DNA from: Amphiscolops sp. MND2022 | Lineage: Eukaryota | Length of the DNA stretch: 64,000 bases | Reading direction: 5' to 3' | NCBI GenBank assembly: GCA_964187785.1 | Contig: OZ076409.1 | Span: forward strand, 64,606,001-64,670,000 | Shown: piece after piece, positions 1-33,015 of the stretch | Numbering within the stretch: position 1 is the stretch's first letter | Layout of the letters: each line of letters starts with the position of its first letter | Translations under genes and position numbers: made by a program | The notes under the pieces: generated by a model | What the model was told of the DNA's origin: nothing | Database searches by the model: none | The model's input: the letters and a program-made list of their open reading frames with translations, nothing else

Positions 1-15
1 ATGGCTTGAAGTTCC

Positions 16-676
16 TTGCCAATCACAAAAAATTTATTGTTAGATTCAGTGGCAAGGTGTTGGATGTTATCAGAGATGGAAGAAGTCATCGCAAACATCC
101 GGTTAATGGCATCCGCATTTTCTTCACTCTGGCAAGTACCAAAAATGCCAGAGAGACCACAAGAGCCAGAGCCCATGGAAACGCCAGTTCCAAAAACGCC
201 AATGGCTCCAACCGCAACCGCAGCTAAGGGAAGAGCACGAGGAACACGGCTTGAGGGTGGAGACGGAGGCGGTAACGAAAGGAACCTGGCAACTTCCGGG
301 TGGAGGTGGGCTAACGAAGCATCAGAGGCGTTGACTTCTTTGTGAATTCTGCCCTGAGCCAGTGGGTGTCGAAGCCTCTAGTGCTGGTGTTCGTGAAGTT
401 CAAGTAACAATTGTACGTGGGCATGTCCCACATAGAATGAAGCGCCGTCAATATACGAGCTAAATCAGCTTTGAGACTCACAGAAAATTGAGGAAAGGGC
501 AACAAAAACTGGACGTTAATAAACTTCTCTGCCATGAGTATTTTACGGTCTTCATGAAAGATAATCCCTTTCTTCAGGGGGCCATCAGAATCGTCAAATT
601 CCGAAATGGGCTAGCAAAGAAATATGAACGAATTTGCTGTAAGAAGTGGTATGATCACAAAGAACGTCAGGAATGA
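16..676 (+). pseudogene. Degraded coding region of unknown family (first unit of the antisense cassette; probably begins left of the window)
   Basis: The Pro/Glu-rich ORF 16-345 overlaps a second frame that reads about 155 codons with only two stops (QPQLREEHEEHGLRV...HQRR*LLCEFCPEP...QYTS*ISFETHRKLRKGQQKLDVNKLLCHEYF...ERQE*). GC is higher than in the flanks. Confidence 0.35.
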
Positions 677-953
677 TCCATCCAAAAATGGTGATGGTCT
701 AAGCCGTAGGCGGTGAACTTGCGGAATGTTGATATTTACACCGGATATTGATCGTGCTATTGAAATTTATAACAAAGTAAGTGGATCAAGTAGATCATAT
801 ATTTGAAGTTATTGTTTCGAGCAAGTTTGCTATTCATTTGTTTATGCTTTTATTGTCTTGATTCATCAATTGTCTGAACATCTACTACCGTCTCAATCGA
901 TCTAAAGTGAGTCAAGTCTAATATGATATTCGAGTCTTTCAGTTGCAAAGTAA

Positions 954-1286
954 ATGAATTGTCCTTCGACAAAATTCGAAGAATTTGTTCTCTGGTGTTG
1001 TGCCGAGGGCACGGATGCGTCAAGAGGGGGGCGCCTCCTCTCTTTCAGCAAAGAGCCCCGGCCCGAGTGTAAGCAGTCTCTGCCCGCAGAGACTGGAACT
1101 TCGGAAGTCAAGACAGTGGCAGTCATTGTCGGAGTCGGAGTGATGGTGTTGATCACCCTGTTTCTTGGTTTTTGTTGCCGCACATGGCAGAAAAAGAAAG
1201 AAGAAAAGGAGCTAAGGAGAGCGACAAGAGAAAAATTGAAAAAAGAAAGGAGAAAGCCAGAAGGCAAGAAAAGATGGAAAAAATAA
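954..1286 (+). CDS. 110-aa single-pass membrane protein: Cys-containing N-terminus, TM helix, juxtamembrane CC, polybasic tail (FAST-like architecture)
   Basis: ATG-initiated ORF; hydrophobic VAVIVGVGVMVLITLFLGF is followed by CC and a K/R-rich tail (WQKKKEEKELRRATREKLKKERRK...). Confidence 0.55.
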   Translation: MNCPSTKFEEFVLWCCAEGTDASRGGRLLSFSKEPRPECKQSLPAETGTSEVKTVAVIVGVGVMVLITLFLGFCCRTWQKKKEEKELRRATREKLKKERRKPEGKKRWKK

Positions 1287-1814
1287 AGAAGAAAACGTAT
1301 TTGGAAACTACAGTCTAAAAACAGAAAAGGAGAAGTAAACAACGCACAGTAGAAGTGAAGAGTGAGAGTTAGATAATGTCGTACTATGCGGTGGCAGTCG
1401 TCCAGTATTATTCATGTTGAAGCATATTTAAAATCAACAGAGTCTGTCAGTCGTACATTTTAAAACTACAAGAAAAGCCAAAAAAACTGGTGTAAATTTG
1501 AGTGTGTTAGTTGTATAGATTAGTTGTCTGGTGGAAGTCAAAAAAAGACAAAAAAACAACAACAAAAAAGGAAAAGAAAAAGAAAAAAAACGTTGGCTGG
1601 AAGTCGACTTGAAAAAAAAAAGAAAAAAATCAAGATAGTGGAAGAAAAGAAAAAAAATGTTTGTGCGTTGAAGAGTCTTTTTCCGTAATTTGAGTCGAAT
1701 GTTGAGTGAAGAGGAGTCTGTCGGGTAGTAGTTCGAGCAAGATGTTGAATTGAAGTTGGAGAGAGAAAAGGAAATTCAGATAATTCAAAGTGTATTGTTG
1801 CGTTTCAGAGTACC

Positions 1815-2484
1815 ATGGAGCGATTTTTGCGAGAAGCCATCACGAGATATCTGACAGAAGGCACTTTAGATGAAACAGTGCTGGATTCCAGAGATAGGCG
1901 TGAGGCTTTCAAAAAGAACTGCAGGAACATGAAGTTCGAGAGAGGCGTGCTGTTACAAAGGGCGGAGGAATGACTTCTTGCCAATTCCAACACCGGAGCA
2001 AGTGGATAATTTACTCTATAAAATCCACATCAAGAACTATAAAGAAGGAGAAAGTGGTATTGGGAAGAAGCATTATCGGGGCCTGCAGCTACATGTGGAG
2101 GCACTGTCAAATGCTGGGTGGGCCTTTCCGATTGGTATGGGAGGACTGAAAGCAGTTGCGGAAGAGTAAGTGCATTTATTCAAAGATAAAAACTTATAGT
2201 AACAAAAGGGAAAAATTTTTTTTTGTTTTTTTTGTAAAAGAAAATGAAATAAGGAATGGTGTATATGGTTATCAGGTTTCTCAGGAATTGTCAGGAATGC
2301 TACTTCGCGAGTGAAGAAGGGAGGAAAGTACAGAGGTATTTGAGTTTCGTTGGAGCGGCGGATCGAACTCTGTAGTCAGTTCGATTATACCTGTGTATGG
2401 GAACCTCTATCATCTTCACGAAGTGGAGAAGTTCCTGTCATTCTCGAAGAACCAGGACGCAAAGAACCTTTGGGGGTCCTTGCG
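1815..2484 (+). pseudogene. 3'-truncated copy 1 of the HHCC-OTU gene (exons 1-2 and part of exon 3; 2-nt deletion in exon 1)
   Basis: Same sequence as 3162-3829, but GTGCTGTTAC replaces GTGCTGTGTTAC. It is cut by the repeat junction before the OTU Cys motif. Confidence 0.75.
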
Positions 2485-3161
2485 CATGGCAGAAAAAGAA
2501 AGAAGAAGAAAAGGAGCTAAGGAGAGCGACAAGAGAAAAATTGAAAAGAGAAAGGAGAAAGCCAGAAGGCAAGAAAAGATGGAAAAAATAAAGAAAAAAA
2601 GAAAACGGAGAAAAAGTCAAAGGTGCCAAAAACAGTGAAAAAGTCGTATTTGGAAACTACAGTCTAAAAACAGAAACGGAGAAGTAAACAACGCACAGTA
2701 GAAGTGAAGAGTGAGAGTTAGATAATGTCGTACTATGCGGTTGCAGTCGTCCAGTATTATTCATGTTAAAGCATATTTAAAGTCAACAGAGTCTGTCAGT
2801 CGTACATTTTAAAACTACAAGAAAAGCCAAAAAAACTGGTGTAAATTTGAGTGTGTTAGTTGTATAGATTAGTTGTCTGGTGGAAGTCAAAAAAAGACAA
2901 AAAAAACAACAACAAAAAAGGAAAAGAAAAAGAGAAAAAACGTTGGCTGGAAGTCGACTTGAAAAAAAAGAAAAAAATCAAGATAGTGGAAGAAAAGAAA
3001 AAAATGTTTGTGCGTTGAAGAGTCTTTTTCCGTAATTTGAGTCGAATGTTGAGTGAAGAGGAGTCTGACGGGTAGTAGTTCGAGCAAGATGTTGAATTGA
3101 AGTTGGAGAGAGAAAAGGAAATTCAGATAATTCAAAGTGTATTGTTGCGTTTCAGAGTACC

Positions 3162-3829
3162 ATGGAGCGATTTTTGCGAGAAGCCATCACGAGATATCTG
3201 ACAGAAGGCACTTTAGATGAAACAGTGCTGGATTCCAGAGATAAGCGTGAGGCTTTCAAAAAGAACTGCAGGAACATGAAGTTCGAGAGAGGCGTGCTGT
3301 GTTACAAAGGGCGGAGGAATGACTTCTTGCCAATTCCAACACCGGAGCAAGTGGATAATTTACTCTATAAAATCCACATCAAGAACTATAAAGAAGGAGA
3401 AAGTGGTATTGGGAAGAAGCATTATCGGGGCCTGCAGCTACATGTGGAGGCACTGTCAAATGCTGGGTGGGCCTTTCCGATTGGTATGGGAGGACTGAAA
3501 GCAGTTGCGGAAGAGTAAGTGCATTTATTCAAAGATAAAAACTTATTTTATAGTAACAAAAGGGAAAAATTTTTTTTTGTAAAAGAAAATGAAAGAAGGA
3601 ATGGTGTATATGGTTATCAGGTTTCTCAGGAATTGTCAGGAATGCTACTTCGCGAGTGAAGAAGGGAGGAAAGTACAGAGGTATTTGAGTTTCGTTGGAG
3701 CGGCGGATCGAACTCTGTAGTCAGTTCGATTATACCTGTGTATGGGAACCTCTATCATCTTCACGAAGTGGAGAAGTTCCTGTCATTCTCGAAGAACCAG
3801 GACGCAAAGAACCTTTGGGGGTCCTTGCG
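3162..3829 (+). pseudogene. 3'-truncated copy 2 of the HHCC-OTU gene (intact exon 1 at 3162-3514, exon 2, part of exon 3)
   Basis: The 118-aa ORF ends in a GTAAGT donor. Splicing to CAG|GTTTCTCAGG yields ...VAEEFLRNCQEC, which completes the HHCC motif. Confidence 0.75.
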
Positions 3830-4509
3830 CATGGCAGAAAAAGAAAGAAGAAGAAAAGGAGCTAAGGAGAGCGACAAGAGAAAAATTGAAAAGAGAAAGG
3901 AGAAAGCCAGAAGGCAAGAAAAGATGGAAAAAATAAAGAAAAAAAGAAAACGGAGAAAAAGTCAAAGGTGCCAAAAACAGTGAAAAAGTCGTATTTGGAA
4001 ACTACAGTCTAAAAACAGAAACGGAGAAGTAAACAACGCACAGTAGAAGTGAAGAGTGAGAGTTAGATAATGTCGTACTATGCGGTTGCAGTCGTCCAGT
4101 ATTATTCATGTTAAAGCATATTTAAAGTCAACAGAGTCTGTCAGTCGTACATTTTAAAACTACAAAAAAAGCCAAAAAAACTGGTGTAAATTTGAGTGTG
4201 TTAGTTGTATAGATTAGTTGTCTGGTGGAAGTCAAAAAAAAGACAAAAAAAACAACAACAAAAAAGGAAAAGAAAAAGAGAAAAAACGTTGGCTGGAAGT
4301 CGACTTGAAAAAAAAGAAAAAAAAATCAAGATAGTGGAAGAAAAGAAAAAAATGTTTGTGCGTTGAAGAGTCTTTTTCCGTACTTTGAGTCGAATGTTGA
4401 GTGAAGAGGAGTCTGACGGGTAGTAGTTCGAGCAAGATGTTGAATTGAAGTTGGAGAGAGAAAAGGAAATTCAGATAATTCAAAGTGTATTGTTGCGTTT
4501 CAGAGTACC

Positions 4510-5767
4510 ATGGAGCGATTTTTGCGAGAAGCCATCACGAGATATCTGACAGAAGGCACTTTAGATGAAACAGTGCTGGATTCGAGATAAGCGTGAGGCT
4601 TTCAAAAAGAACTGCAGGAACATGAAGTTCGAGAGAGGCGTGCTGTGTTACAAAGGGCGGAGGAATGACTTCTTGCCAATTCCAACACCGGAGCAAGTGG
4701 ATAATTTACTCTATAAAATCCATATCAACAACTATAAAGAAGGAGAAAGTGGTATTGGGAAGAAGCATTATCGGGGCCTGCAGCTACATGTGGAGGCACT
4801 GTCAAATGCTGGGTGGGCCTTTCCGATTGGTATGGGAGGACTGAAAGCAGTTGCGGAAGAGTAAGTGCATTTATTCAAAGATAAAAACTTATTTCATCGT
4901 AACAAAAGGGAAAAATTTTTTTCTTTTTTGTAAAAGAAAATGAAATAAGGAATGGTGTATATGGTTATCAGGTTTCTCAGGAATTGTCAGGAATGCTACT
5001 TCGCGAGTGAAGAAGGGAGGAAAGTACAGAGGTATTTGAGTTTCGTTGGAGCGGCGGATCGAACTCTGTAGTCAGTTCGATTATAACTGTGTATGGGAAC
5101 CTCTATCATCTCCACGAAGTGGAGAAGTTCCTGTCATTCTCGAAGAACCAGGACGCAAAGAACCTTTGGGGGTCCTTGCGGAGGTCGGAGGAGAATGCTT
5201 CTTCTCGAGCGTATACTATTTGCTCTGTGGGAGAAAATCTGGTGAGAGAATTGAGAATAGATGAAATGAGAAAAGAAAAAAAACAAAGGTAATCTGACAG
5301 ATGAATATTTTACATAGATCGAAAGAATGCGACGGCAAGTCGTAAGTGCAAGGCTCTACGCGTGGCTGCAACAAAGGTGATGCAGACGGTGGAGTTCAAG
5401 GATTATTGCAGGGAATCCCTTGGCATGGCACCCAACGACTTTATGGCTCAAGAGTGTGCGAAAGTGACGGCGAGCATCTCTGAGGCGGCCGTAAGTACCT
5501 GAAAATGGGCGCTAGAAGGAGCCAAGCGTTGTAAGGGGGGTGAGCATTCATTCATAATTTTAGATTCTAGCAACAGCATGGGTGTTACAAACGGACCTGC
5601 AAGTGTACTGGCAATATTGGAACTTGGGCGGGTGGATCCGGTACAAATACGGACCGAAAAGTTCCGGTACAGGGGCTAGCTTTCTGTGCCACGCCATCCA
5701 GGGCGGCGAACGGTTCCGGACCCGCTTCCACTGCGAGCCGTTGCCCCATTTTCCTGAGCCAGAGTGA
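4510..5767 (+). CDS. 5-exon gene: GIN/Ginger-type integrase HHCC zinc-binding domain fused to an OTU-like cysteine protease (about 319 aa if the 2-nt deletion near 4583 is repaired)
   Basis: Exons 4510-4860, 4972-5031, 5072-5241, 5318-5490 and 5564-5767 are all GT-AG with matching phases (intron 2 could alternatively be 5024-5075, also in frame). HHCC: LLYKIH...KHYRG...WAFP...EFLRNCQEC. OTU: EVGGECFFSSVYYLLCG...ALR...EAAILATAWVLQTDLQVY...FHCEPL. Confidence 0.75.
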
Positions 5768-6706
5768 GTAAACTTGAAAATTTACAGAGAATCCGAGAGA
5801 TTATTGCTGTTTCTAGAAAAATTGGCAAAAAATTAACTTTATAAAAGGTTGAAGACACCTGTGAGGGTGCGGAGCCCTGCTAGAGAACCGTGGGAAGAAG
5901 AGGAAGCTATGGGAGCATGCGGGACGAGCGCTTCAAGCGGATAAATGTAAGTAAAGATCATCTGTGTGGAAAAAAATCCAAAAAATAGTTAAAATATATA
6001 CGAAAAAGAGGTTGTAAAGTAAGAAAACAGTCAAAAAAATTAGAAAAAGGTATGGCGCGGACAGCTAGGATCCGTGAGAAGCCTCTAGAGGGGTTTAGGA
6101 CCCATTCCAAAGACCTGGGAGAGCAAAAAATAGATTTTTCGAAAAAATTGATATTTCCATAATATGGTCGAAAAGTGACCCAGAAAAATTTTTTTTTCAA
6201 TTTTTTCCGGATTTTTTGGGCTTAATCCAAAGTTTGGGCGAAAAAATGTCGGTCACCACTAGTTTTAGGGCAAAATTCGAAAAATTCGAAATTTGGGTCT
6301 ATTTAGGTAGTATACAGAAAAAGTGGTAATTTTGCAAAGAAAAGGTCCCATAAATAGTAGGAAGGGAAGGGTCGGGTGGATCGGAATATGAACCAGGATA
6401 ACGAGGGGAATCTGCAGGGCAAGTTTCAGGAGCAAAAAGTGCTCAGAAAGAAAAAAAAATCAATTGTTTGCTCAAAATAGGGTGAAAATGGAGATCGATG
6501 GATAGGAAAAATGAGGAAAATGGTGAAGAAAAGCAATTTCTCTGGACCCTAAACGGGCCAAAAGGGCTAAATAGGCGGCTAGAAAGGTCCTCCCATAGAG
6601 AAAAAGACCAAAGCAGTAGGCGATTAAAAGCAAAAATATGCAAAAAATAGACATAAACGGCGAAATTCTGAAAAAACGCTAAAATAAGGGAAAAGATGAA
6701 AAATGG

Positions 6707-9700
6707 TTATTTCCAGGGTTTAGACTGAAAAAATGAAGTACGACCAGGTTTAGGACGTAAACGTTGTTCACGCGTGCCCGATATAGGGACTGTAGTAACA
6801 GTCGCAGTCGTAGCCGTGGCGGGGGTAGCATCCGCGAAAACATGTTGTGAAGGGGGGAGGCTACGAAGATATGCATGGCAGTCCTGAATGACTGGTGTCG
6901 GAGTGACAGGTTTCGAGGGTGAACGTCGGTTAAACGACTTCTGAGCGAGCACTCGAGAAACTAATGAAGGCTTATACTTAGTAGGGGTAGTGGGGCGCGG
7001 TATACGAGACAGCGAAGATGAAGAATGAGAAGTGGGTGCGCCCGAAGAACAATGATAGCGAGGTAAGTTAGCAAGTTCTTCATTGGTAATAACGCCAGGC
7101 ATACCAGAGTATGGCGACGCAATTTGTGGAGAAGAAGGCGAGGATAATATCGGACGTGCACGATTGATAAGACTTTCAGAAAAACCAGAAAATTAAGAAG
7201 ATGAGCTAAGATCCGAATGATCATATATCTTAGGTCGCGTAGCAGTCGTCGTAACAGGAGGGACGTCCAAAGAGGGAGACAAAATAGGGGTAGGAAGGAT
7301 AGAAGTAGCTATTTCCAGTGGTGGAGCCTGAACGGTAGCTTTAAGAGGGGTTGAATGCATTACAGGTGTGCTTTGTGTGAAAATAGAGGTTGTATGGGCA
7401 AAAGGCAAAGTAGGCTCAGCTACTGTAAAAACATCAAAAGAATCAAACGTCGTATCGGGACTAGGGAAAAAGGAAGGATGAGGTTCAGAAAAGTGTTCCC
7501 TAGGGGGGGTGGAGTCACGAGAAGAGAGTATAAAAGAGTCGTGACGTTGATCGCTCACTGGGATGTTACGAACATCCTGTGTGAGAGAGACCTGACGCGG
7601 CGACGGGGCTTTATGGCAATTAGGCACCAGTCGTGGAAAATCAAAATTCTGAGGTGGGGGTAAAGTGTGAAGCGGCGGTGGCTGTGCCACTGGAAGAGCC
7701 TGCGGAACTACAGGAGGTGGGGAGGAGCCGGTGGAGCAGGTACAACCGGTGGTAATCGGCGGGGTTGATAACAAAAAACTACTGCCGGGGTGTCTGCAAT
7801 CTCATCCTCCGGAGTGAATGTTTTATCCTGTAGGAGGTTTGGTAGCGCGTCATCAAAAACTGAAGGCTCAGATACGCGGCGTGTGGAAGGATCAGGTTGA
7901 AAGTTAGAGGGGTTAATGGTAGAAAGATCTTCCACATTGTATTGAGGCTGAATTGGTCGCAGGCGGATTCTATGTACACATTGTGTGTAATTTAAACCTA
8001 CTTTACGAATGATGTAGTTTGAATGGGTAAGAACCGTTTCTACACAGTATAAGGGCAGCCATTTGGTTAAAGATTTCCCCCATATGGTCATTGACGTTAG
8101 ACAATTTTGGATTCAGAAGTAAACAAAAGTCGTGTTTTTTCAGAGGTAAAGCGGAAGCTTTACGATCATAGAAATGACGGTACTTGTTACATGCCGTGAT
8201 AGTAGCATCACGTGCGTGTGAAAAAACTTCATTCATCTTATCCTGTAGTGTACTCGTAAAGTCGTATTTAGTCTCTAACGTTTGGAGCATTTTATTATTA
8301 AACCGTAGATCAAGTTAAGATGTCGGTTGGCGTCCGTGAAAAAGAAAAGTAGGAGTACATCCGATTGAGGTGTGTTAGGTGGTATTATGTACGAAAACCG
8401 CTAAATCAACATAAGAATGCCAATCACGCTTGGCACGGTTTTCGTAAATTCCCAAATACTGTTTAAGAGACGCATGACAGCGCTCAATCGAACCCATTGT
8501 TTGAGGGTGCTTAACAGTCGCGTACTCCAGTTTGATTTCTAATAACCGCGAAAGTTCTGTCATAACACGGGCTGTAAAGGCAGTGCCCATGTCGGAAAGG
8601 ACAATTTTTGGCAAATACGACGATCTCATGAAAATGTGAAATAACTGCTTTGCCACATTCGGAGCACTTGCATTGCGCAACGAAGTTGCAAAGAGATATT
8701 TGCTAAAAGTATCTTTCGCTGTTAGAATGTGGGTAAAACCTCCTGAATCAGGCAATTTTCCAACTAAATCAATTTGGAGCATTTCACCAGGGAAATACTT
8801 GTCCGTTGCCAGGGATAACAGTGGTGGTTTTAGCGTCGCATGTTTTACTGGTTTAGTTTGAAGACAAGAAGAGCAATTTTTTACAATGTGAGTTAAAAAT
8901 TCAACAAAGTTCGGAAAGTAGAAATGTTTTCTAAAAAGTTCTGCCGTTTTCGCAATTCCTGGATGACCTGCATATTTGCTATTGTGTACTCGATAAAGTA
9001 ATTCCTCACGTAAGTGAGTGGGGACAACATACTGACGTATGAAGTCACGACCATTGTCGCTGAAAAACTTACGATAGAGTACACCGTTATGGTTTTCTAA
9101 GCGAGCAAAATGCTTTAGGTACTTGCGAAGTTCAGTATTCATGTATGGCGAAGGCGATGGTGGTCCATTCGCGATCCAGGCAAGAACTAATTTAATGTTC
9201 GTATCTTTTTGTTGTTCAAGTTGCAAATTTAAAGGGGTTAGTCGATCTGACATCGAGTTAGTCTAAGTGATCTAAAGGGTTGAAGGCATGCAATGCATTT
9301 AGTGATGGAAGAGAGGTTTTAAGGTCCTCTGAGGACATGAAAATTTCGCAGTCAGCTTTTAGCAAGTTTACCGAGTTATCAGGGACTTGCATTCACATGT
9401 TCAAATGGACATCAGCCACAGGAATTTTAGAATTAAATTTCAACTCAAGTTCCGTGTGCGGCTGGAAATGAATGCGGGACAGGTAATCAGCTGCCGCATT
9501 TGCTTTACCAGGAATGTGTCCTAGCAAAAAATTGAAATTGAGTACATGGTCTACGCAAGTCCAAAGACTCGAGGGAATGGTTTTGGCTTGAAAAAACCTA
9601 GTGAGGCTTTTATTGTCAGTAAGGACTAAAACTGGTTTAGTGGTGCCCCAAAGTATGTGGGCAAAAAAGTCAAAGGCAAAATGGACAGCTAGAAACTCTT

Positions 9701-11988
9701 TTGCATAAATAGAAAGCTTCAAGTAAGTGGGCGTGAAAATTTTAGAACCAAAAGAAACAGGAACGTACGTTTTGTACTGTTTTCCCGATTGATCCGTAGC
9801 ATAGTCTTCAATGAGTAGCACATAACCGGCAGCGTAAAAGCTAGCATCGGTCGAACTCACATATTGTGCGTCTGCTTCAGGCAATTTCAAAGCCAGTTGG
9901 CATGCCTGTTCTAAGTCTTTTCGCAAAGTAGCTATACACTTGTGATGTTCTTCGGTTAGTACTATATCATTTTCTTTTCGTAAAAGTTGGTAGAAAGGTA
10001 GCAACTATTCTCCAAGTTTCGGTATAAAAGAACGAAAATATTGGAAGAATCCAATAAATCGTCTTATTTGTTTTACAGTTTTCGGTACTTTCAGTGTTGA
10101 CAAAAATTCAGTGACTTTAGTTTTATTCGGTAGCACTCCTTCACTAGTTATTGTGTTCCCCAAAAATGTCATTTCTTTCAAGCCAAATTCACATTTGCCA
10201 GGTGTGAATTTAAGACCTGTTTTCTCTACACACTTGAAAATTGCTTCTAAATTAGTTGCAAATTCTTCAAACGTAGCGGCAGCAGTGCCTAAATCATCTA
10301 CATACTGAAAGCACTGGTCGGCAACAATACAAGGGTAGAGGTATTTGCGCATAAAAGAACTAAAGGCGCTAACTGAGCGACTCAGTCCTTGTGCTAAGCG
10401 TAAATATGCAAAAGTCCTTGAAAGAAAATTGAAAGCAAGCAGTTGCACAGACAAAGTATCTGCCATTTGTAAGACATGATATGCTTGGCTACAGTCTAGT
10501 TTGGCAAAGTACTTCTTTCCTGCAAGATGTGAATTCACATCGGCCAAAGTAGCTATCGGAAAATTGTGATTATCATAATCATGCCTTATTAAATGGTTAA
10601 TTCGTCGCAGATCTACTAATATTCGTAATTTTCCAGATGGTTTACGGAGGGCAAAAATGGGACTGGAGTATTTCGAGTAAGTCAAAGTTGTTATCACTCC
10701 CCAATATTGTAATAAAGCCAATTCCACTAAAACTTCGTCTCGATAGTGGATAGGGGTTGGCGGACCCTGTGTATACATAGGCTTGTCATTTTCAGGGGAC
10801 AGCTTGACTTTAAACTCTTCGTTTGCGCCAATATCAAGACGATGTCGTGCAAAAATATGATATTATTTTAACAAAAGAGCTTCAATCTGTTGTTTCTGCT
10901 CTTGATTGAAAACAGGGTTTTCCCATGGAAACTGAGCAAGAAATGATTCTCGATCCGCAAGGTTCTTCGCAGGATTTAATTTTTCCCGTTTTTTCAGTGC
11001 AACAATTTCGTCATAAATACGTTTTTGTATGCCCGTCAATGTTTCTGGATTAGGGCAATTCTCAGGTGTTGGAAACCAAAATTCATCGTTGGACGGATAA
11101 ACTTTGTGTTCCGAATCAGCAATAGGCCATTTATGCTCTTATTGAGATGGTCAGTCAAAATTTCAGGATTTACAGGTTGTAAATACTGTGCCTGAGAAGC
11201 TGTTAAAATCGTGACTTCAGCAACTTGAGCATTTTTCTGTACTGTTACTTGATGAGGCAAAAGATTTAGTATCCCTAAGGCAACTTGTTTCTTCGCGTCA
11301 AATTTTACAATGGCACTGGTTACACAAAGACCAGTTTGTTTTTCAAACCGTGGGTTAGGTTTCACGATTGCTACTGTTCCTTCAGGGAAGGATTCTGTAG
11401 AGAGAATACATTGGATTATTTCGCATGTGTTCGGTTTAACTGAGAGAGTTTGGGCAGCATGTAAGAAAAGATTTTTCTTAGTAGTTAGTGAACTGATTTT
11501 GCCACCTTTATGGACTCGTTCAGTTAGTTGTATGGTCATGTTCGGCAATTTTAGCGTTCGGGTTTTCGGATGAATCAAGATATCGTGTTTTTCAAAAAAC
11601 GGAAGACCTAAAATGGTCTGGTTCATCGTTTCCATGAGGATGAAAGTTTCGGTGAAGTTTCGTTCGCTATTTTGAAAGAGGCTTGAAAAGTTCCATGTGT
11701 GGTTATAGAGGCACCAGTGGCAACTTTTACTGTTGAAGGTTGAGGGTTATAGTTGGTTATACTTTTTGGACCTAAATGTTGAAGTTTATTAAAAATGGAA
11801 AGAGGCATGGCGCTTGAGAAAGCACCAGTATCTATAAGGGCTTTAACAGGAAAAGAAAAGTGAAGTGGTACAGAAAATAAAGAAGTGCGAGGCTTTGAGG
11901 ATAGTACGTTAATGAAGTTAGAAGGAGTACAGTTAGGAATATTAGATATATTAGAAGTATGGGCATTGTGTGGCTTACCTAGTTTTTT
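6707..11988 (-). pseudogene. pol: Gypsy pol (protease, RT, RNase H, integrase, long P/S/T-rich tail), disrupted
   Basis: ALIDTGA protease; RT LDCSQAY, LAQG, YVDD; RNase H TDAS, KEFLA, TDNK, AADYLSR; integrase H..GHPG..CSSC, QIDLVG, SDMG, IER. Split over ORFs by stops and frameshifts. Confidence 0.93.
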
Positions 11989-13230
11989 TGGTAGATGTTA
12001 GGCTGGTTGGCATCATATTGGGGTGTCCATGATTGTGGCATTTGGTTCATGGATATCATCTTGGTTTGTTGTTGCTGAAACTGCTGTGTGGGCACAAACT
12101 GGGCATTGGAGAATTGATTATATGGCAAGACTGGTGGGTAGGTTGGTTGTGGGCGAAACCAACATTGTGAGATCAGATGGCCAAATTTGTTGCAGTAGTT
12201 GCAGTACTTTTGTCCAGATTGGGCGAAGTATGGGTTGTTGTTGTTGTTGTTTTGCCAATTTTGTCCACGTGGTTGCCAATTTGGGTTTCGAGGTCGAAAG
12301 TTCTGGTTGTTATTGTTTTTCCAATTTTGTTGATTATTTTTCCAATTCTGCTGATTATTGTTATTGTTACGCCATTGTTGCTGATTATTTCCTCGAGGAC
12401 CAAAATTTTTGTTCCAGTTCTGACGATTTTTGTTGTTATTGTTGTTCCTGTTATTGTTGTTGTTTTGGGTATTGTTTTGGGTAGCTGCAAGTTGATTGAT
12501 TGTAGGTTGAAGAGTTTTATTTAACTCTTGAAGTTCTGTTGAGAGTTTTCCAGTTTCTTCTTTCAGTGTGTCCTGGGCTTTGGACAACTCGTGTATGCCA
12601 GTCAGTAGTTGTTTTGTTGAAAAGTTACTGACCTCGTTGAATGCTGTATCGTCGTCCTCAGGGTAGAGGCGGTCAACGATAAGACGGCTGGAAACCTTGG
12701 TGCATAGTTCATCTATTGCCATATCTTCGGGTTGAGTCATTAGGAAACGCTTCATCTTGATGGGCATTCCGTTGATGAATGCTTCACGAACTCTGCGAGT
12801 TCGCTCTTGAGCACGATTTTCAGCATTTACTGCAGGTCTTCCTCCTGCTGCAGCTCGGGCTTGAATGTCCGGGTACGCTTCGAGTGCCAGTCTTTGCAGC
12901 TCAGTGAGAAAGTCTTGTGGACTTTCGTCAGAGACTTTCATTTTGCGTGAATTGAAGAATTTTTTGCAACTGTATTCTTTGATCGTTTTGGTAACGATTT
13001 CGTAGGGCAGCTACGGCGGCGTCGTAGTCGTTTCGCACAGCAGCTTCTTGTTGGTCAAAGAAAGTTAGGGCACCTCCTTTAAGATGAAGGTGTAGGTACC
13101 GATGACGTTGGTCATTGGGAATGCCTGCAACTTGAGTGCAGCTCTCAAGTTGGCGGAGAAATTCGTCAAAGTTTTCTTTTTCGGTACCCTTGAAGGGTTG
13201 AAGATTTACAAAAGGTTGTATGGCAGCCAT
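11979..13230 (-). pseudogene. gag: Gypsy gag with N/Q-rich region and CCHC knuckle (one frameshift near 12950)
   Basis: ORFs 12928-13230 and 11979-12941; PFKG...F, ESPQDFLTELQRLA, REAFING, CNYCNKFGHLISQC. Confidence 0.9.
11982..11988 (-). promoter_or_regulatory. -1 ribosomal frameshift heptamer A AAA AAC at the gag/pol junction
   Basis: Gag ends CAA AAA AAC TAG. The -1 frame is open from here through LGKPHN...ALIDTGA. Confidence 0.8.
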
Positions 13231-13393
13231 AATTGTAGAATTTGAAAGTAGATTTTTAAGAAGAAATATTTATTGTGAAGATTTAGTATTTCAGGTGAGT
13301 TTTTTTACAGTACTTGCTGTTTCAGAGAGAAGAGATTTGAGCTGGTGGTGGATGGAAGAAAGAAAGTTCTAGCGAGCAAATTTGTGGAGAATA

Positions 13394-13406
13394 ACTCCTG
13401 TCACCA
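13394..13406 (-). promoter_or_regulatory. Primer binding site, tRNA-Leu-like
   Basis: TGGTGACAGGAGT lies immediately after the LTR end. It matches the recalled Leu PBS TGGTGTCAGGAGT at 12 of 13 positions. Confidence 0.65.
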
Positions 13407-13791
13407 TGTCAGTGACTGTGGTCGAGCGGCTGATCTGATTTTGTTTTAGAGACATTTTAGTTTTGTAGAACTTGTTTTATTCGAATGCTTAATTGGGTAA
13501 CTTCTCCTTTGCTCAATTCTCTAACTTTTAGAAAGAATACAATTTTGGGTAGAAAGATTTGTTTTATTGTAGCGATAAAGAAAGTTAGATTATGATGAGA
13601 TTAATTTAATTTAGTACAGTTTAGTTAGTACAACAAGTTCTCGGTCTGTCCGTTTTACTGATCCGCTCGTCCACCTTCTTCTTTGGTCCAGCGTGTTGAG
13701 TTGTGATTGGCTGGCATTGTGATTGGTTGTCATCTGTACTTCAACGAAATTTTGTTGTTAATGTACACTTGTCCATGGCGTTGTCATGACA
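13407..13791 (-). repeat. 5' LTR of the Gypsy element (385 bp)
   Basis: Minus strand begins TGTCATGACA and ends CACTGACA abutting the PBS; it contains AATAAA. The outer boundary is inferred from the terminal inverted repeat only. Confidence 0.7.
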
Positions 13792-14632
13792 AAATGATTT
13801 TTCAAACACCAATTTACAGTAGCTGATTTACTTACAGAACAAATAACGACAAAATTCCTTCGAAATGCCCACTTGGAGTGAATTAATGAGAAAATCGGCC
13901 TCTTCTGGACTAATTTTTCGGTAACAAAAAGTTTGCAAAAACTTTAATGAAAGTCTTCCAACAATTCCACAAAAGGAAAAAACGAAGATCAGATGTTACA
14001 GTGGAAACATTCCGACACACTTTTAAAGTAACTCACATAATCTGAGTTTTCAAAAATGCTTAAGAGTAAGAGTTTTCGGGAAAAAAATCATGTAAAAGTT
14101 CAGGAATCCAGTATAAAAAATTCAACGCAAACTTCCGCGAAAAGACATCCTCAGTGATTTTGAATGAAAGCATCCACATGTTGGACTACGCCATAATTTC
14201 AAACCGCAAAAAAATCTAATGACAGTTGATTTCTCTGAGGAAACATTTCAAATCGCAATAACTTTTTACATGATGAATTGAAACAACAGTCTGGAAGACA
14301 GCTGTCCGTAACAAAACATTCTTGTGACATACTTTGTATCTTTGATTCAGACTTTGGCTTCAGCACTTTTTCCGAAAACGCCCTCCTTGAAAGTTTACAC
14401 CACTAAATGATCACAAAAAGCTAATTTTCAACTTTTACTCCGTGAAAATATATTGGCGGAATTAGAACTGTTTTTGGCTGTTCACTTTTCAAGAAAGCGT
14501 TTTCATGGAGAGCTTTAACTATAATAGTTGAAGAGCGTTGTCAAAGCTACAAAAACGATCGGAAAAGGTTTTCTTTTAGACAAGTAGGTTTTGAGAAAAT
14601 GTGTAAAACGGTTCGAAACATTCCCTCGAAAC

Positions 14633-15179
14633 AAACAAGACGGGAATGTCTCAAGTCGGCGCCCACTTCTCGAACTACCGTCTCAATTGTCTCCGCTTTA
14701 GCAAAACGCAATACAGTCAGGATGTAACGTCAAAAATTCGAATAGTGTTGAAAAAATATATATTGGTGGACAGATACTGAGAAAACTTAACTTCAGACGG
14801 AAAATGAGGATTTTGAAACAGTCTCATAGTGCCGAAAAATCTGAAAGGGTGGACCCTTTGGGATTTTTTAACATCCATTTTGTTGCATAATATCAAAGAA
14901 GTGAAGGGATACATTATAAAATTTTCACAAAAAGTCTCAATGCCGAAAAAAAAATCGAAAGGAGGACCATTTAGTCTCGTCCGGTTTTGTATGTTACGTT
15001 AAGAAAGTAAAAAAGGGTGACCCTTTGCAATAACTTAGATGCGTTTCCCAGATACTCATTTAGTTGAACAAATTGAACAAAAATTTCGTCGCACTCGAGT
15101 GTCCTAAAGAAAAACAAAAAAACCTAAAAGACTGTGATAGTCGGGCTCGTTTATTTTATAAAAACGCCGACTAAAAAAA
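14633..15179 (+). mobile_element. Short non-autonomous HINE/Helentron-like element
   Basis: Head AAACAAGACGGGAA..AAGTCGGCGC; tail TAGTCG..CGCCGACTAAAAA (sub-terminal inverted repeat plus stem-loop); internal AAGGGGGACCCTTT-type motifs shared with many copies. Confidence 0.65.
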
Positions 15180-16810
15180 CAATCTCCTGAAAATACCATG
15201 CGATATCCCTTGTGAAACTTCGAGACAGTAGTAGTTCTACGAAAGTTAGTTCTATCACTGATCCATGAATGACTTTTTTCATGATACGAATATTGAGCTC
15301 TTCAACGTTTTGGTATACTAGTGTATTTTCGATGAAAAATTTGTACAGAAAACAAAATCGCAACAATTAGCTCTTCTCAAATCAATGTGAAGGAAGTAAT
15401 TTTTCGATTCGGACCAATGAGGGAAATCAAGTCAAAACAGACAAAAAAATCCTGCATTCATCGCCACTTTTGAGTCATCGTTTTTCGACATTGCAAGGAA
15501 AACGAGAAAATCTTCGGCACTAAAAAATTCCAAGCATAAATGTTTTCCGAGGGAAATCTTTTTTTTTAAATTCCTAGAGAAATGATTGCAAATTTCGGTA
15601 TTTGATGTTGATATGACAACAAAACTGTTATGAAATTAAAAATCAAAAGCTTTCGACTGAGATATCTATTCAAGAGGAATTGAGTGGAACAATGAAAAGA
15701 CGATTTTCAAAATCGTGATCGTTTTCAGTATTTCCGATCAAGTATTCAGCGAAATTAAACCAAGTTCCACCTAAATCATTTATAAAGGCGATTACGTTTC
15801 TATTGGGACCGATACCAGAGAAATTGAGTGAGGACGCACATTGTCAAAGTTCTACAAATATTGGAAAATTTGATCGCTCCTCAACACCAATAGCAAAAAG
15901 CAAAAATCGGCTCCACTCAATAACTCCAAGTATAATTATCTTATGACCCGAATTCTGTGCCCTATATATAAAGCTCCTACGAAAAACTTAATTTTTTGGT
16001 CGTGAGAGCTGCGATATCTAGTACTTCTTCGGAAAAACTTCCACGGTCGTAAGAGCGGGTTATCTTATGATAGTATTTGAAAATTGGAAAAGATTAAGTA
16101 GGAATATTTTGGATATTTGTAATTTGTATACACTGCTTCTTCTAAATATTCTCGATCAAGTTGAGAAGCATAGCGGTCACAGACCTTGTGAACTGAAACA
16201 ATCTTAGAATTGACACAACTAAAACAAAAGATTGGGTATTTATAATTATATTTCGCATAATTCAATCTATATATACATAGAAACTACAATAGGGTGAATT
16301 TTGGTGGGATTTAATGAAAAATAGGCAAAAACGAAAAACAGAAAACATGAGCACCTTCAATTGATATTTTTATTCCATGAAAAATATTAAAATTCAACGA
16401 ATGACCTTGAATAACATTTAGGAATTGAACAAAAAGAAGACAAACCTAACATTTCATCAGTGTACACACAAATTGTCACAACGGGTGAATTAGGATTACA
16501 AATTTATTAGACACTGTTCAAAGTGTCTTGAATCGAAAATGAGAGACGTAATTGCAGAAGAAATTCATTTTCGGAATGACATTCAGGAAACTATTTGATC
16601 TCCTGTGGTATTCGATTACACGTTGCTTTGATACGATATTCGCTTCCACTTCGGAGCCCAGACGAGTAATCGGAGAACTAAACAGTTATCGACTCCGAGT
16701 ATCAAATCCAAACGCCTCATAACTTTCCAAATCTTGGATTTTTTTGGAAACTGTTGAATAACAAATCTGCCTCGTCAAATTCAACAAACCCACGCCTTCA
16801 GAGTATCTAT

Positions 16811-19800
16811 CTACTTTTTGCGGAATCCGGGCAGTGCAAACCCTGACTTCGCAGTGACGTGGAACTTGGAAATGAGTTGAGAGAAACAAGATACCAGAGA
16901 GTCTCTGTCGTAAAGTGACACTTCAAAATGTAGGGGAACTTTACACGATTGCACCCATTGAGAAATATCGTCCTGAGAGACATGTCGTTGACACTTCTGG
17001 CTGCCATTGACTACTGGGTCTAACCCTGTCTTGTTGATCAAATCAAGTCGGTTGCCGAGAACCATGATAGGAAATGTTGTTTTGGACTGAAACAACAAAT
17101 GAGCATTAACTATCATGAATACATTGAACGTTTCTGGTTTTTTTTTCACTCTTCGCCAGGACTGTCTACCGGCTAAAAATCTATGTCGCTACTATCGCAC
17201 ATAAAAATCTATGTAAAGCGCCTTCTCTGTATTTAAAGTACCAATTTCTCTAAACTTTTCAAAATTTTGTAATTTCAATTAGAAATCGAGAGATTATTTG
17301 CTACAAAAAATTGAAGTTACAAAATTAAAATCACTTCATCCAAAATTTGCAAAACACTTACATCTTTTTTGATTTTGAGGTCAGCGAATAGATTTGTAGC
17401 CAATTGGAATGTGGAAGCGTCAGTCAAACTGTACAAGATAATGACAGCGTCAATATTTACAAACTCTGAGTTGGTGCGTGCGAGAAAGTACTTGGGCACG
17501 TCAGCTAAACTGTTCACTCCGTCCGTGTCAATCAGCCTCACACTGTCCTTCACACTGCTGCCCACTGTGCCTCCGTTGCTGCCACTGCTTCCTGCAACCT
17601 TCGAGGGAGCTTCCGGGATGAACTCAATCTCCAGCTCGTAGAAATCTTCCAAACTCATGCATGGCTCATAAACCTGTCACAAAACGATATCATATCAATA
17701 TATTCGTGTTTGACTCAGCTACACGTGTCGAGAGTTGAGTATCAACATTTCTCTATCCACTGCGTTTTTATTAAGTTGACTTCATAATTTGTATATATTT
17801 TCGGGACCTGACGATGATACAGATTATCGGAACATGTTGTGAATTAATGTTTCTCATCAATATCAATATTGCATATGGAAGCTTACGTTGAACTCACGAC
17901 AAAACTAGCCATAAAACTCATGTTATTATAAAAATTTGCAAGCCAAGAACGGCATAAGTCCGCGCCCCGCTCAAGCAAAACTACTTCAAAGTGTCAAGGA
18001 GCCTCTTTTGAAAAACTTCTCAATTTTGCAACGCCCAAGAAGAAACCTACTTGGCCAAAAAAGTTTCTCACCAGAAAAACAAAAAACCAAAGCGTTCTTT
18101 CCGGTTTCATCACCAGAAACATCAAAGAACCAACGCGATAACCCCGTGGGGAAGCCGAAGGGGGACCTTTGGTGAAATGAAGAAATTTTCCTTTTGCAAT
18201 ATCCATTTTTTAAAAAGTCTCACAGTTCCAAAAAAACACTCAAATCCTATTTTAATCGGAATATGTGTCAAAATTTGAATGGGTAGACCCTTCCGATCAA
18301 TTTGAATTTCGTAGAAATTTAGAATTTTATAGTCACTACGACCAGATTGAACAAGACGAGAACGTCTAAAGTCGGCGCTATATCTAAGGCTCAAAAAGCG
18401 CAAAACATTTTTGGAAAAAAACTTGAAATTTTTGAAAATTTTTCTCTTTCAGAAAATGTCGCACAGTGCCGAAAAAAAATCAAAAGGGGACCCTTTAGTC
18501 TCGGCCGGTTTTGTAGGTTACGTTAAAAAAGTAAAAACTGAAAGGAGGGACCCTTTGCACTAAGTTTGCCTTGGCCCCTTAGGTGGTTTCAGGATTGTTT
18601 CTAAAAAGTGGACCGATCATCGTGAGGATTGTAGTCTGAAGAAACAAGACGAGAACGTCTAAAGTCGGCGCCATATCTAAGGCTCAAAAAGCGCAAAACA
18701 TTTTTTTTGAAAAAAACTTGTAAATTTTGAAAAAAAAGTGTTTCAAAAAAAGACGCAGTGCCGAAAAAAATCCAAAGGGGGGACCCTTTAGGCACGTCCG
18801 GTTTTGTAGGTTTCCTTGAAAAAGTGAAAAAATGAAAAGGGGACCCTTTGGACTAAGTCTACCTTGGCCGGACTTGGCCTCAGGTGCTCAGGTGGTTTCA
18901 GGATTGTTCCTAAAAAGTGGACCGATCAGTGTGAGGATTGTAGTCTGAAGGAAAAACAAGCCGGGAACGGCCCAAGTCGGCGCCATATCTAAGGCTCAAA
19001 AACAGCAAAAGGACTTCCAAGTATTCTCTTCTACGGTACCGGAAAAACCCAAAAGTTGAACCGAATTGGCACACCAGAGGCGACACTTTGAAATTTTTTA
19101 TCCATTCTGTCGCAAATCATCAAAAAAAATTGGAGAGCACTTTTGGTGAAAAAAAATTTTTGAAAAAAAGTCTCGACCCTTTAGTCTCGTCCGGTTTTGT
19201 AGGTTACGTTAAAAAAGTAAAAAATGAAAAGGGGGACCCTTTGCACTAAGTTTGCCTTGGCCTTAGTGGTTTCAGGAGTTCCTCTAAAAAGTGGACCGAT
19301 CAGTTTGAGGTCTGTGGTCTGAAGAAAAAAGGTCAGTGCTATAGTCAGGCATTTTTCCTTAAAAGGAAAACGCGCCGACTCGACTAAAAACAAGACAGAA
19401 AGTAATATTCTAATCTTTCTAACTAAATCACCTCCTCCCGTGTCCAAATTGAATGTTTATATTTTTGAAATAAATGCAATGTTCTTAAATGAATGCTCTT
19501 ATTTTTACAACATTCAATTAAATAAACTTTCCTTTCCTTTCCTAAATCAGCCCTTTTTTCAAGAAAATGTGACCAGATATCAGGATAGTAAGTATATTTT
19601 CTAGATCACTACTTTACTGCAGGGATCACTGAAACATAAAACACCCGATGGCAAACGTTTAGAATTTTCGGCACTGCTCGATCTTTTCTGTGGCCAATTT
19701 GACCAAATAGTACCACTTGGAGTTTTCGTGATAATTTGTATCTGAAAGCAAGCCAAAAATTCTGGACAATATTGGATCCTTAATATAAATATAAACAACT

Positions 19801-19936
19801 ACAATATTAAATGAAAGCGACAACTTATACCAACATGACTGGAGCTAGAATGTGAAGAGTAGATGAGTTGGTGCACGAAACTCGTCTTCCCGGTGCCTTT
19901 GCCTCCAATGATGAGGATCCGATATGGCTTAGTCAT
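16811..19936 (-). CDS. NKIRAS: NF-kappaB inhibitor-interacting Ras-like GTPase (kappaB-Ras), 3 exons, about 229 aa
   Basis: Exons 19936-19835, 17673-17362 and 17086-16811 are all phase 0 and GT-AG. GGKGTGKT P-loop, HQLIY, EDFY, VRLIDTDG, VPKYF, VLGNRLD, EVS, C-terminal KSGFALPG and no CAAX, as in kappaB-Ras. Confidence 0.85.
17936..19390 (+). mobile_element. Head-to-tail cluster of HINE-like elements in NKIRAS intron 1
   Basis: Heads at about 17938, 18350, 18642 and 18955; a single CGCGCCGACT..AAAAA tail at 19371-19390. Confidence 0.7.
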
Positions 19937-21939: not shown

Positions 21940-22158
21940 TTTTCGGAAAAAATGCATGTCAAAGGGTTACCCTACGCTTTTTCAAGTTTTCTGCTGAGAA
22001 AGCGTTTTGCGAACTTGAAGGGTCTTTTTTGATTTTCGGCACTATGAGACCTTTTTTCCGAAAAGTATTGTGTTTTGAGTGTCCCTTTGCTTATTCAAAA
22101 CACTTTGCACTTTTTGAACCTTGAGAGGGGCGCCGATTTGGGCAGTTCCCGGTTTGTT
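21940..22158 (-). mobile_element. HINE-like element, partial, minus orientation
   Basis: Ends GGCGCCGATTTGGGCAGTTCCCGGTTTGTTT, the reverse complement of the family head. Confidence 0.5.
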
Positions 22159-22628
22159 TAAATTTTTGAATCAGAAATATCATGTTGATACTTTTACTGA
22201 ATGCATCCAAAACTTGGACGTAGGGCTTCTTGGATAGTTGACTAGAAAAATTACTAGTAGCAAAAATGGCCGTTTTCGAATACAGGCGAAGCTATCAGCT
22301 TGAGAGGAGTAAATGAATAATAGGCAAGATGAACATTCCTTCTTAACAATATTCCAGCTTACGCAGAAACATCTAAAGAATATCATTTCCCCATCAACCT
22401 TCCGCGATGGAATCTAATTGCATTAATAATGCACTGAAAGTATCCAAAATGGCATTCCCAAAACGAATAATACCCTTCCTTTCGTTTGTAATGAGCGTTG
22501 TAATACTACTTGTTGAGCGTGCTCGTTCTAAAGTGACACATCTCACCTAAACTTGTAAAAGGCAACTGGACCTTGACTTGATTGAGGTTATCAAAAATTT
22601 TGAACCTGTACACAGCGATGTTGAATAT

Positions 22629-22992
22629 AAAACAAGCCGGGAACGGCATAAGTCGGCGCCATATCTAAGGCTCAAAAATAGCAAAAGGACATGAAGGGAC
22701 CCTTTCGCATTTTTTAACATCCATTTTTGCAAAACATCAAAAAATTGAAGGGAGACCCTTTGGTGATTTTTTTTGCCGAATAAAAACTGAAAGGGGGGAC
22801 CCTTTAGTCTCTCCCGGTATTGTATGTTACGCGGAAAAAGAGGGAAAACCTTTTTGGTTCAGTTCGCTACGCCAAATGATTAAATTTGGGACCATAAAAT
22901 TTCGTAGAAGTTTTAAGAGCTGTTTTGGTCAGTTCGTGTGGATTGAAAAAAAAGTCGCTATAATAGTCGCGTTCCACTTCGCCGACTAAAAA
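22629..22992 (+). mobile_element. HINE-like element, complete
   Basis: AAAACAAGCCGGGAACGGCATAAGTCGGCGCC ... TAGTCGCGTTCCACTTCGCCGACTAAAAA. Confidence 0.7.
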
Positions 22993-33009: not shown

Positions 33010-33015
33010 ATGGAT

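What the first reader, a model, noticed from the sequence alone, without database searches (positions are those of the whole stretch)
954..1286. FAST-like small membrane protein next to an envelope-less Gypsy
Seen: 110 aa, about 55-residue N-terminal part with four Cys, one TM helix, CC right after the TM, and then a polybasic tail. No env ORF is visible. Known: reovirus FAST fusogens such as p10 have this order (small ectodomain, TM, palmitoylated dicysteine, polybasic motif), and FAST-like small ORFs have been proposed for cell-to-cell spread of env-less insect Gypsy elements. Inference: a candidate cell-to-cell transmission factor. The architecture is generic, and the ORF is antisense to gag-pol.
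Basis: partly seen in the sequence, partly recalled or inferred. Interest (0 to 1): 0.7.

Follow-up and report, generated by a model that had tools for sequence, protein, structure and literature searches.

The report
Antisense membrane gene beside retrotransposon envelope
A decayed virus-like jumping gene carries, back to back with its own envelope gene, a small membrane-protein gene from a conserved family that matches no catalogued one and likely helps or restrains that envelope protein rather than replacing it.

Summary
The 110-aa ORF (954-1286, +) is as described: four Cys, one TM helix, CC, basic tail. It is a real gene. There are 28 database relatives down to about 25% identity. Cys spacing C-x11-CC holds in 22 of 22 rows with both motifs, and the N-terminal 39 residues are twice as conserved as the TM.

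The premise 'envelope-less' is wrong. A broken env lies at 667 to <1 on the gag-pol strand, 96% identical to a 741-aa protein with signal peptide, RxxR plus hydrophobic peptide and C-terminal TM, nearest to F-type fusogens.

FAST likeness is partial. The 11-residue Cys loop matches p10. The ectodomain is too long (51-59 aa), predicted to fold, and unmyristoylated, and the juxtamembrane Cys is missing in the distant subfamily. Published sORF2s are sense-strand and never occur with env.

Best reading: a new antisense accessory membrane protein of an env-bearing Gypsy, probably acting on or with Env (0.4). Stand-alone FAST-like fusogen: 0.17. Function is untested.

The parts
954..1286 (+). Small membrane-protein ORF (110 aa), antisense to gag-pol-env; damaged copy of a conserved family
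954..1070 (+). Conserved N-terminal domain, residues 1-39, C-x11-CC-x22-C; predicted four beta strands plus a short helix
   Evidence: pLDDT 78-87 over residues 1-40
1071..1115 (+). Variable polar linker, residues 40-54
   Evidence: 24% mean pairwise identity; low pLDDT
1116..1178 (+). TM helix (55-73) and juxtamembrane CC (74-75)
1179..1286 (+). Basic/charged tail; leaves the relatives' frame near residue 101-104. The C-terminal peptide of P0001 is coded at 1301-1318 in another frame
1..667 (-). 5' part of a broken F-type env-like gene (runs off the window): stop at 611-613, frame change between 353 and 335, RxxR plus hydrophobic peptide near 250-170
668..953 (.). About 290-bp AT-rich spacer between the divergent env and small-ORF starts; TATAAA on the minus strand at 771; shared promoter inferred, untested
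1180..5180 (+). Tandem triplication, units starting 1180, 2482, 3827 (94-95% identical); units 2 and 3 repeat only the tail of the ORF
3162..3518 (+). Second antisense ORF (118 aa), intact only in unit 2; no Pfam hit; weak likeness to the element's own integrase His2 region
6707..13230 (-). Decayed Gypsy gag-pol: gag with zinc knuckle, protease, dUTPase-like stretch, RT, RNase H, integrase, Pro/Ser-rich extension; many stops and frame changes
13407..13746 (-). Likely 5' LTR, followed by a TGG primer-binding-site-like sequence at 13406 (inferred from sequence; the partner LTR is outside the window)

Best explanation
The ORF is a conserved antisense gene lying back to back with an env-like gene in a Gypsy retroelement; it encodes a predicted N-out single-pass membrane protein whose small, likely disulfide-held outer domain probably binds the element's own F-type Env, or works beside it, to tune membrane fusion and spread. 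Shown: the ORF, its family, the conservation pattern, the env gene and, in this window, the divergent layout. Inferred steps: (1) a promoter in the 290-bp spacer drives env one way and the small gene the other; (2) the TM acts as a reverse signal anchor and the basic patch keeps the tail inside; (3) four Cys close a compact beta domain held on a 15-19 residue stalk; (4) this domain is a protein-binding surface, and Env, made in the same cell and membrane, is its likeliest partner, as a helper of trafficking or triggering or as a brake on self-fusion and superinfection; (5) acylation at the CC and, in one subfamily, a C-terminal ETTV (class I PDZ-type motif, recalled definition) would place it at particular membrane sites. 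The window's own copy is probably dead.
For: Family of 28 relatives. C-x11-CC in 22 of 22 rows having both motifs, of 29 rows; CC-x22-C in 21 of 24. Mean pairwise identity 58% in residues 3-39 against 24% linker, 30% TM and 28% juxtamembrane, with TM hydrophobicity kept: the signature of selection on a protein-binding outer domain. Two AlphaFold runs give the same four strands. Env present; RxxR kept in 32 of 33 env relatives that cover the site; 9 of 44 entries are 695 aa or longer. 11 of 28 small-ORF relatives share an exact contig length with an env relative, one contig being only 8,701 bp. Subfamilies match in 10 of 11, with Spearman 0.54 over 55 of 66 pairs, which are not independent. Precedents for small membrane genes beside F or Env: jeilongvirus TM and SH (PMC6097224, passages), HIV ASP near Env (PMC10186651, passages), internal env promoters in Tor elements (PMC4402516, passages).
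Against: No binding, expression or localisation was shown. Linkage to env is expected for any gene of the element and does not imply a shared function. Linkage in relatives rests on equal contig lengths, not on DNA, so adjacency and antisense orientation are shown only for this window. One of 11 pairs (contig length 604351) joins discordant subfamilies, and 29 of 40 env contig lengths had no listed small-ORF relative (cluster lists were partial). The small protein diverges much faster than Env (32% against 62-64%), which also fits a host-facing role. The env assignment has no Pfam or PDB sequence hit, and the Atlas recognition value (1730) is below the level at which the tool calls a high score strong. 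No polyadenylation hexamer was found at 1287-2300 on the + strand.
Confidence: 0.4

Rival explanations
1. Host-directed accessory protein: the outer domain binds a host surface or signalling protein (receptor blocking, dampening of defence or cell death as for paramyxovirus SH, or junction targeting), independent of Env.
For: Faster divergence than Env. ETTV C-terminus in 4 of 28 relatives. Atlas nearest named clusters are small Cys-rich single-pass host adaptors (PRIMA1 0.83, Shisa-like 0.81, CYYR1 and TNFRSF12A 0.79). SH lowers TNF-alpha via NF-kB (PMC6097224).
Against: All Atlas scores are under 0.9, which the tool calls leads only. No Pfam family passes its cut-off, and matches cover mostly the TM. 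ETTV is absent from 24 of 28.
Confidence: 0.25
2. Stand-alone p10-type FAST-like fusogen: the first Cys pair closes an 11-residue fusion loop, the CC is acylated, and the protein fuses neighbouring cells so that capsids pass directly, in addition to the Env route.
For: Size, no signal peptide, one TM, basic patch (17 of 20 rows with 3 or more K/R), juxtamembrane Cys in 12 of 20. Exactly 11 residues between the first two Cys in 22 of 22, the length of the p10 loop (PMC3961370). One member has a weak Orthoreo_P10 match (E 0.041).
Against: Ectodomain 51-59 aa against <40 for FAST and about 30 for sORF2. Four Cys and a predicted beta domain rather than a lone loop. The loop holds 2-4 charged residues in 20 of 22 rows. 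No MG start in 0 of 29. Juxtamembrane Cys absent in 6 of 6 distant-subfamily rows. The P10 hit is 14.3 bits against a cut-off of 21.4, covers only the TM region and is 23rd of 25 TM-type hits. All 105 published sORF2 candidates are sense-strand, and sORF2 and ENV never co-occur in drosophilids (PMC13486581).
Confidence: 0.17
3. Opposite topology or chemistry: the Cys domain is cytosolic and binds zinc or is acylated, and the protein anchors capsids or RNA to membranes.
For: No signal peptide. Four invariant Cys could be metal ligands (inference).
Against: Basic residues directly follow the TM in 17 of 20 rows, which by the positive-inside rule (established knowledge) puts the C-terminus in the cytosol.
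Confidence: 0.1
4. Not a functional gene of the element: a shadow frame of a sense-strand ORF (902-1411, minus, open for 169 codons), or the last exon of a host receptor.
For: The minus frame is open in the window. The + strand is A/G-rich, so basic tails come easily. Many relatives are truncated.
Against: Dipeptides that force a stop in the minus frame occur in 4 of 28 relatives. Cys spacing and TM hydrophobicity are kept at 25% identity. Met is in the same column in 24 of 25 rows. A search of 1.84 billion proteins of any length found the N-terminal motif in no longer protein: the 4 long hits of 17 matched only TM plus basic tail or a repeat and were dropped.
Confidence: 0.05

Closest known systems
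Avian/Nelson Bay reovirus p10 FAST proteins
   Same: Small, no signal peptide, one TM, 11 residues between two N-terminal Cys, juxtamembrane CC, polybasic patch (PMC3961370, passages).
   Different: Ectodomain 51-59 aa rather than 36-40; four Cys and a predicted four-strand domain; loop partly charged; CC lost in the distant subfamily; no significant sequence match; the element has its own F-type Env.
sORF2 of Drosophila MDG1-group and other insect Gypsy elements (bioRxiv 10.1101/2025.03.14.642691; PMC13486581)
   Same: Small TM accessory ORF with basic patch inside a Gypsy element.
   Different: sORF2s are sense-strand, mostly myristoylated (MGxxxS/T was a search criterion), with an ectodomain of about 30 aa, and do not co-occur with ENV in drosophilids. 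This ORF is antisense, Cys-rich and unmyristoylated, and sits beside env.
F-type env-carrying Ty3/gypsy 'ancient errantiviruses' (PMC13524379) and bdelloid TelKA elements (PMC5408684)
   Same: gag-pol-env order; Env with signal peptide, RxxR, hydrophobic peptide and C-terminal TM. TelKA-type lineages also carry dUTPase between protease and RT, as weakly seen here (E 0.005).
   Different: Multi-kilobase pol-env spacer with antisense ORFs. The eLife survey allowed at most 1,000 nt between pol and env. No antisense membrane gene appears in the passages read.
Jeilongvirus TM / paramyxovirus SH; HIV-1 ASP
   Same: Small membrane accessory proteins encoded next to an F or Env gene; TM is thought to aid cell-to-cell fusion; ASP is antisense, Cys-rich and found near Env (PMC6097224, PMC10186651, passages).
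   Different: Functional analogies only. TM is type II and 218-275 aa; ASP has two TMs and overlaps env; no homology was tested or found.
Plant Retand (Tat) elements (PMC11963269)
   Same: Long region 3' of pol with antisense ORFs and tandem arrays.
   Different: Their antisense ORFs are TRP28/DNA-binding types, and the elements have no env.

Membership tests
FAST proteins (p10 type) | Small size, about 95-198 aa | tested here: met
   110 aa; apparently whole relatives 94-147 aa
FAST proteins (p10 type) | Single TM, no signal peptide, N-out/C-in | tested here: inconclusive
   One hydrophobic segment and a downstream basic patch; topology only inferred, no TMHMM/Phobius available
FAST proteins (p10 type) | Ectodomain under about 40 residues | tested here: not met
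   51-59 residues in 20 of 20 rows examined against <40 (PMC3961370)
FAST proteins (p10 type) | Two Cys flanking an 11-residue hydrophobic loop | tested here: inconclusive
   Spacing met in 22 of 22, but two further invariant Cys, 2-4 charges in 20 of 22 loops, predicted beta strands; disulfide pairing unknown
FAST proteins (p10 type) | Acylation site: juxtamembrane dicysteine or N-myristoyl Gly | tested here: inconclusive
   CC in the window copy; Cys in 12 of 20 rows, 0 of 6 in the distant subfamily; MG start 0 of 29; acylation itself untested
FAST proteins (p10 type) | Membrane-proximal polybasic motif | tested here: met
   6 K/R in 15 residues; 17 of 20 rows have 3 or more
FAST proteins (p10 type) | Sequence match to Orthoreo_P10 | tested here: not met
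   1 of 12 members, 14.3 bits against cut-off 21.4, TM region only; none for the window protein at E 0.1
FAST proteins (p10 type) | Causes cell-cell fusion | not testable with these tools
   needs a cell assay
Insect Gypsy sORF2 | MGxxxS/T myristoylation motif, ectodomain 10-50 aa | tested here: not met
   criteria
Insect Gypsy sORF2 | Sense to gag-pol, in an element without env | tested here: not met
   antisense, env present; published pattern
F-type env of Ty3/gypsy errantivirus-like elements (neighbouring gene) | Signal peptide, RxxR then hydrophobic fusion peptide, C-terminal TM | tested here: met
   P0004: hydrophobic windows at 1, 144-150 and 639-649, RVPR at 143; RxxR in 32 of 33 relatives
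F-type env of Ty3/gypsy errantivirus-like elements (neighbouring gene) | Homology or fold likeness to baculovirus/paramyxovirus F | tested here: inconclusive
   Atlas features 0.94-0.96 to Baculo_F and Fusion_gly clusters, 10 of 10 best named hits in one clan, but recognition 1730 (<2300); no Pfam or PDB sequence hit; not folded
F-type env of Ty3/gypsy errantivirus-like elements (neighbouring gene) | Downstream of pol on the same strand, inside the LTRs | tested here: inconclusive
   Same strand and downstream; the 3' LTR lies outside the window
Shisa-like / WBP1 / CYYR1 small Cys-rich adaptors | Family N-terminal Cys domain (six or more Cys, recalled) | tested here: not met
   Four Cys only; no Pfam cut-off passed, WBP-1 matches start at the TM; Atlas 0.79-0.83

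The most novel reading that the evidence does not exclude
An animal Gypsy lineage carries two fusion machines: an F-type envelope and, on the opposite strand from a shared internal promoter, a non-myristoylated p10-like cystine-loop FAST fusogen. This would be the first env plus FAST pairing in a retroelement and the first antisense-coded fusogen of an endogenous retrovirus-like element.
Probability: 0.15. Interest if true: 0.82.

Novelty: new variant of a known kind. Interest (0 to 1): 0.55.

Why it matters
Published surveys would miss this arrangement: the sORF2 screen needed a myristoylation motif, and the metazoan env survey allowed at most 1 kb between pol and env. [quoted passage not shown] A conserved antisense membrane gene that travels with an F-type env would show that invertebrate-type retroelements can have complex-virus organisation with accessory membrane proteins. 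It also offers a candidate for how an F protein without a known attachment partner is regulated. Even if not fusogenic, it is a new small-protein family with a clear, testable domain.

Tried and rejected
No whole genome is held for this window, so sister copies could not be read as DNA; dN/dS, adjacency and strand in relatives are untested. No sequencing run was listed: no evidence either way on expression. Locus scans found no relative for the small ORF (metagenomes; viral, where one stretch matched but no locus was returned) or for env. Fold searches gave nothing significant: full model, E >= 0.19 viral, E >= 0.79 PDB, only long-helix matches at Z <= 7.4; outer domain alone, best Z 4.2 (rmsd 2.6, 42 aligned, generic propeller-blade/PH-like sheets) and E >= 0.28. 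This absence does not show a new fold. PDB sequence searches: no real hit. Profile comparison of the small family with env: none. A heptad scan of Env was uninformative. Rfam: nothing in 1-14500; no tRNA genes. Earlier findings of this scan: none in four look-ups. Literature searches that found no description of this arrangement; the library lacks most subscription papers. bioRxiv supplements were closed, so the sORF2 candidate table (Table S1) was not seen. Rows dropped: P0053, P0054, P0060, P0061 (spurious long hits). One search examined 20 of 28 relatives, leaving out 8 that lack the first Cys or the TM. Alignments A6/A7 hold 24 of 28 relatives plus the window protein. Rejected: chimeric origin at the repeat junction, because P0001, P0002 and P0064 run through that point with the same tail.

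Full report
1. Observation. The ORF at 954-1286(+) is as described: 110 aa, Cys at 3, 15, 16 and 39, a TM at 55-73, CC at 74-75 and a basic tail. Among 90 ATG ORFs of 60-210 aa in the window only two pass a TM-plus-polybasic filter and only this one has the CC; 100 block shuffles gave 0.38 such ORFs per window and none with CC. It lies antisense inside a decayed Gypsy element on the minus strand: likely 5' LTR 13407-13746, gag from 13230, protease, a dUTPase-like stretch (E 0.005), RT, RNase H and integrase. The host was not determined. An animal is inferred from the mix of LTR and LINE elements and intron-split Ras-like exons.

2. The element is not envelope-less. Minus-strand frames between 667 and the window edge encode the start of an env-like protein, broken by a stop at 611-613 and a frame change between 353 and 335. 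The downstream piece is 96% identical to P0004, a 741-aa protein. P0004 has a hydrophobic N-terminus, RVPR at 143 followed by a Gly/Ala-rich hydrophobic peptide, five N-glycosylation sequons, a Cys-rich middle and a TM near 640-665. Of 44 env relatives, 9 are 695 aa or longer and 32 of the 33 that cover the site keep RxxR. The Atlas places P0004 nearest Baculo_F (0.96; family on 23% of members) and paramyxovirus F clusters (0.95; 82%), with the caveat that its recognition value is 1730, under the 2300 mark. Pfam and PDB sequence searches were blank. This matches the anatomy given for F-type env of metazoan Ty3/gypsy elements (PMC13524379: abstract, first parts of sections 5 and 6, passages, and a term search of 7 supplements) and of bdelloid TelKA (PMC5408684, passages).

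3. The small ORF is a real gene family. Three searches and a cluster look-up gave 28 relatives, all ENA-labelled and unnamed where a source was shown, from 90% to about 21-27% identity. Four long hits were dropped as TM/basic or repeat matches. The first Cys and the CC are 11 residues apart in all 22 rows that have both, and the fourth Cys is 22 residues after the CC in 21 of 24. Mean pairwise identity is 58% over residues 3-39 but 24%, 30% and 28% over linker, TM and juxtamembrane region, while the TM stays hydrophobic (2.0-3.3 in 20 of 20 rows examined). The start Met is in the same column in 24 of 25 rows, and no longer protein carries the N-terminal motif, so a receptor exon is rejected. 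The overlapping minus frame (902-1411) is open here but is forced shut by codon pairs in 4 of 28 relatives. AlphaFold predicts four beta strands and a short helix for residues 1-42, a loose linker, then one long helix; fold searches gave only generic matches.

4. It travels with env. The three env subfamilies pair with three small-protein subfamilies in 10 of 11 cases; the exception is a 604-kb contig. This shows co-inheritance, not co-evolution, and it is indirect: no DNA of relatives could be read. In the window the two starts are about 290 bp apart and divergent, with a TATAAA on the env side at 771.

5. State of this copy. It departs from the family at nearly invariant position 21, and its tail leaves the frame of P0001 near residue 101-104. 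A 1.3-kb triplication starts just after the TM. Gag, pol and env are all broken. Four relatives end in ETTV, which fits a class I PDZ-binding motif (definition recalled).

6. FAST comparison. From PMC3961370 (passages), PMC7830690 (passages) and PMC12945298 (passages): FAST proteins have ectodomains under about 40 aa, an acylation site, a basic patch and, in p10, an 11-residue cystine loop. Met here: size, basic patch (17 of 20), loop length. Not met or doubtful: ectodomain 51-59 aa; four Cys in a predicted folded domain; 2-4 charges in 20 of 22 loops; juxtamembrane Cys in 12 of 20 and 0 of 6 in the distant subfamily; no MG start in 29; Orthoreo_P10 far below cut-off. For sORF2 (bioRxiv 10.1101/2025.03.14.642691: abstract, passages, section 10; supplements closed), all 105 candidates are sense-strand and selected for myristoylation, and the authors note they would miss palmitoylated types. 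PMC13486581 (passages) reports no co-occurrence of sORF2 and ENV. So the protein is not filed as FAST or sORF2, though working like one is not excluded (0.17).

7. Mechanism. A constrained, probably disulfide-held outer domain on a variable stalk, with a variable TM, is the pattern of a binding module (inference). It is encoded divergently from env and inherited with it, so the likeliest target is Env or the Env-bearing membrane, as helper or brake (0.4). A host protein is the next most likely target (0.25). Analogies are jeilongvirus TM and SH next to F (PMC6097224, passages), HIV ASP near Env (PMC10186651, passages) and internal env promoters of Tor elements (PMC4402516, passages).

8. Novelty and verdict. 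Seven paper searches showed no description of this family or arrangement; only listings were seen for papers not named above. Antisense ORFs 3' of pol are known in plant Retand elements (PMC11963269, passages), and extra TM ORFs in rotifer elements. New variant of a known kind: a conserved antisense accessory membrane gene in an env-bearing Gypsy. Interest 0.55; 0.82 if it proves an independent fusogen beside Env (probability 0.15).

Noticed in passing
window 3162-3518 (+), with broken copies near 1815-2169 and 4510-4864: Second antisense ORF in the pol-env spacer, 118 aa, no Pfam hit, weak likeness to the element's own integrase His2 zinc region (pairwise E 0.019). Possibly another accessory gene.
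   Followed up: partly
window 5011-5292, 5305-5679, 5989-6162 (+): Further open + strand frames in the spacer that look protein-like but have no significant Pfam match; the spacer may hold an antisense gene cluster.
   Followed up: partly
window 11039-11635 (-): dUTPase-like stretch between protease and RT (Pfam E 0.005, below cut-off), a placement reported for bdelloid and basidiomycete elements.
   Followed up: partly
window 1180-5180: Tandem triplication of a 1.3-kb internal segment, 94-95% identical, unit 1 with a 44-nt gap relative to units 2 and 3.
   Followed up: yes
window 6707-7801 (-): Long Pro/Ser/Thr-rich open frames after the integrase, probably an extended pol C-terminus; no Pfam hit.
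   Followed up: no
window 16811-17658 (-): Two Ras-like coding pieces, probably exons of a host small GTPase gene (Pfam E 0.004 and 0.024).
   Followed up: no
window 14820-25440 and 56940-58880: Dispersed family of short repeats in both orientations (families D5, D8, D9, D12-D15), likely a host SINE/MITE-type element.
   Followed up: no
window 30963-33498: Several inverted repeats with arms of 41-89 nt, MITE-like.
   Followed up: no
window 43700-50623 (-); 33901-36032 (-); 41671-42908 (-); 62085-64000 (+): Other retroelements: a BEL/Pao-like element with 162-nt terminal repeats, two LINE-like RT remnants (labels from recall of the translations) and a second Gypsy gag-pol (protease hit).
   Followed up: no
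window about 54790-54980: Run of N (assembly gap), seen as X in translations.
   Followed up: no
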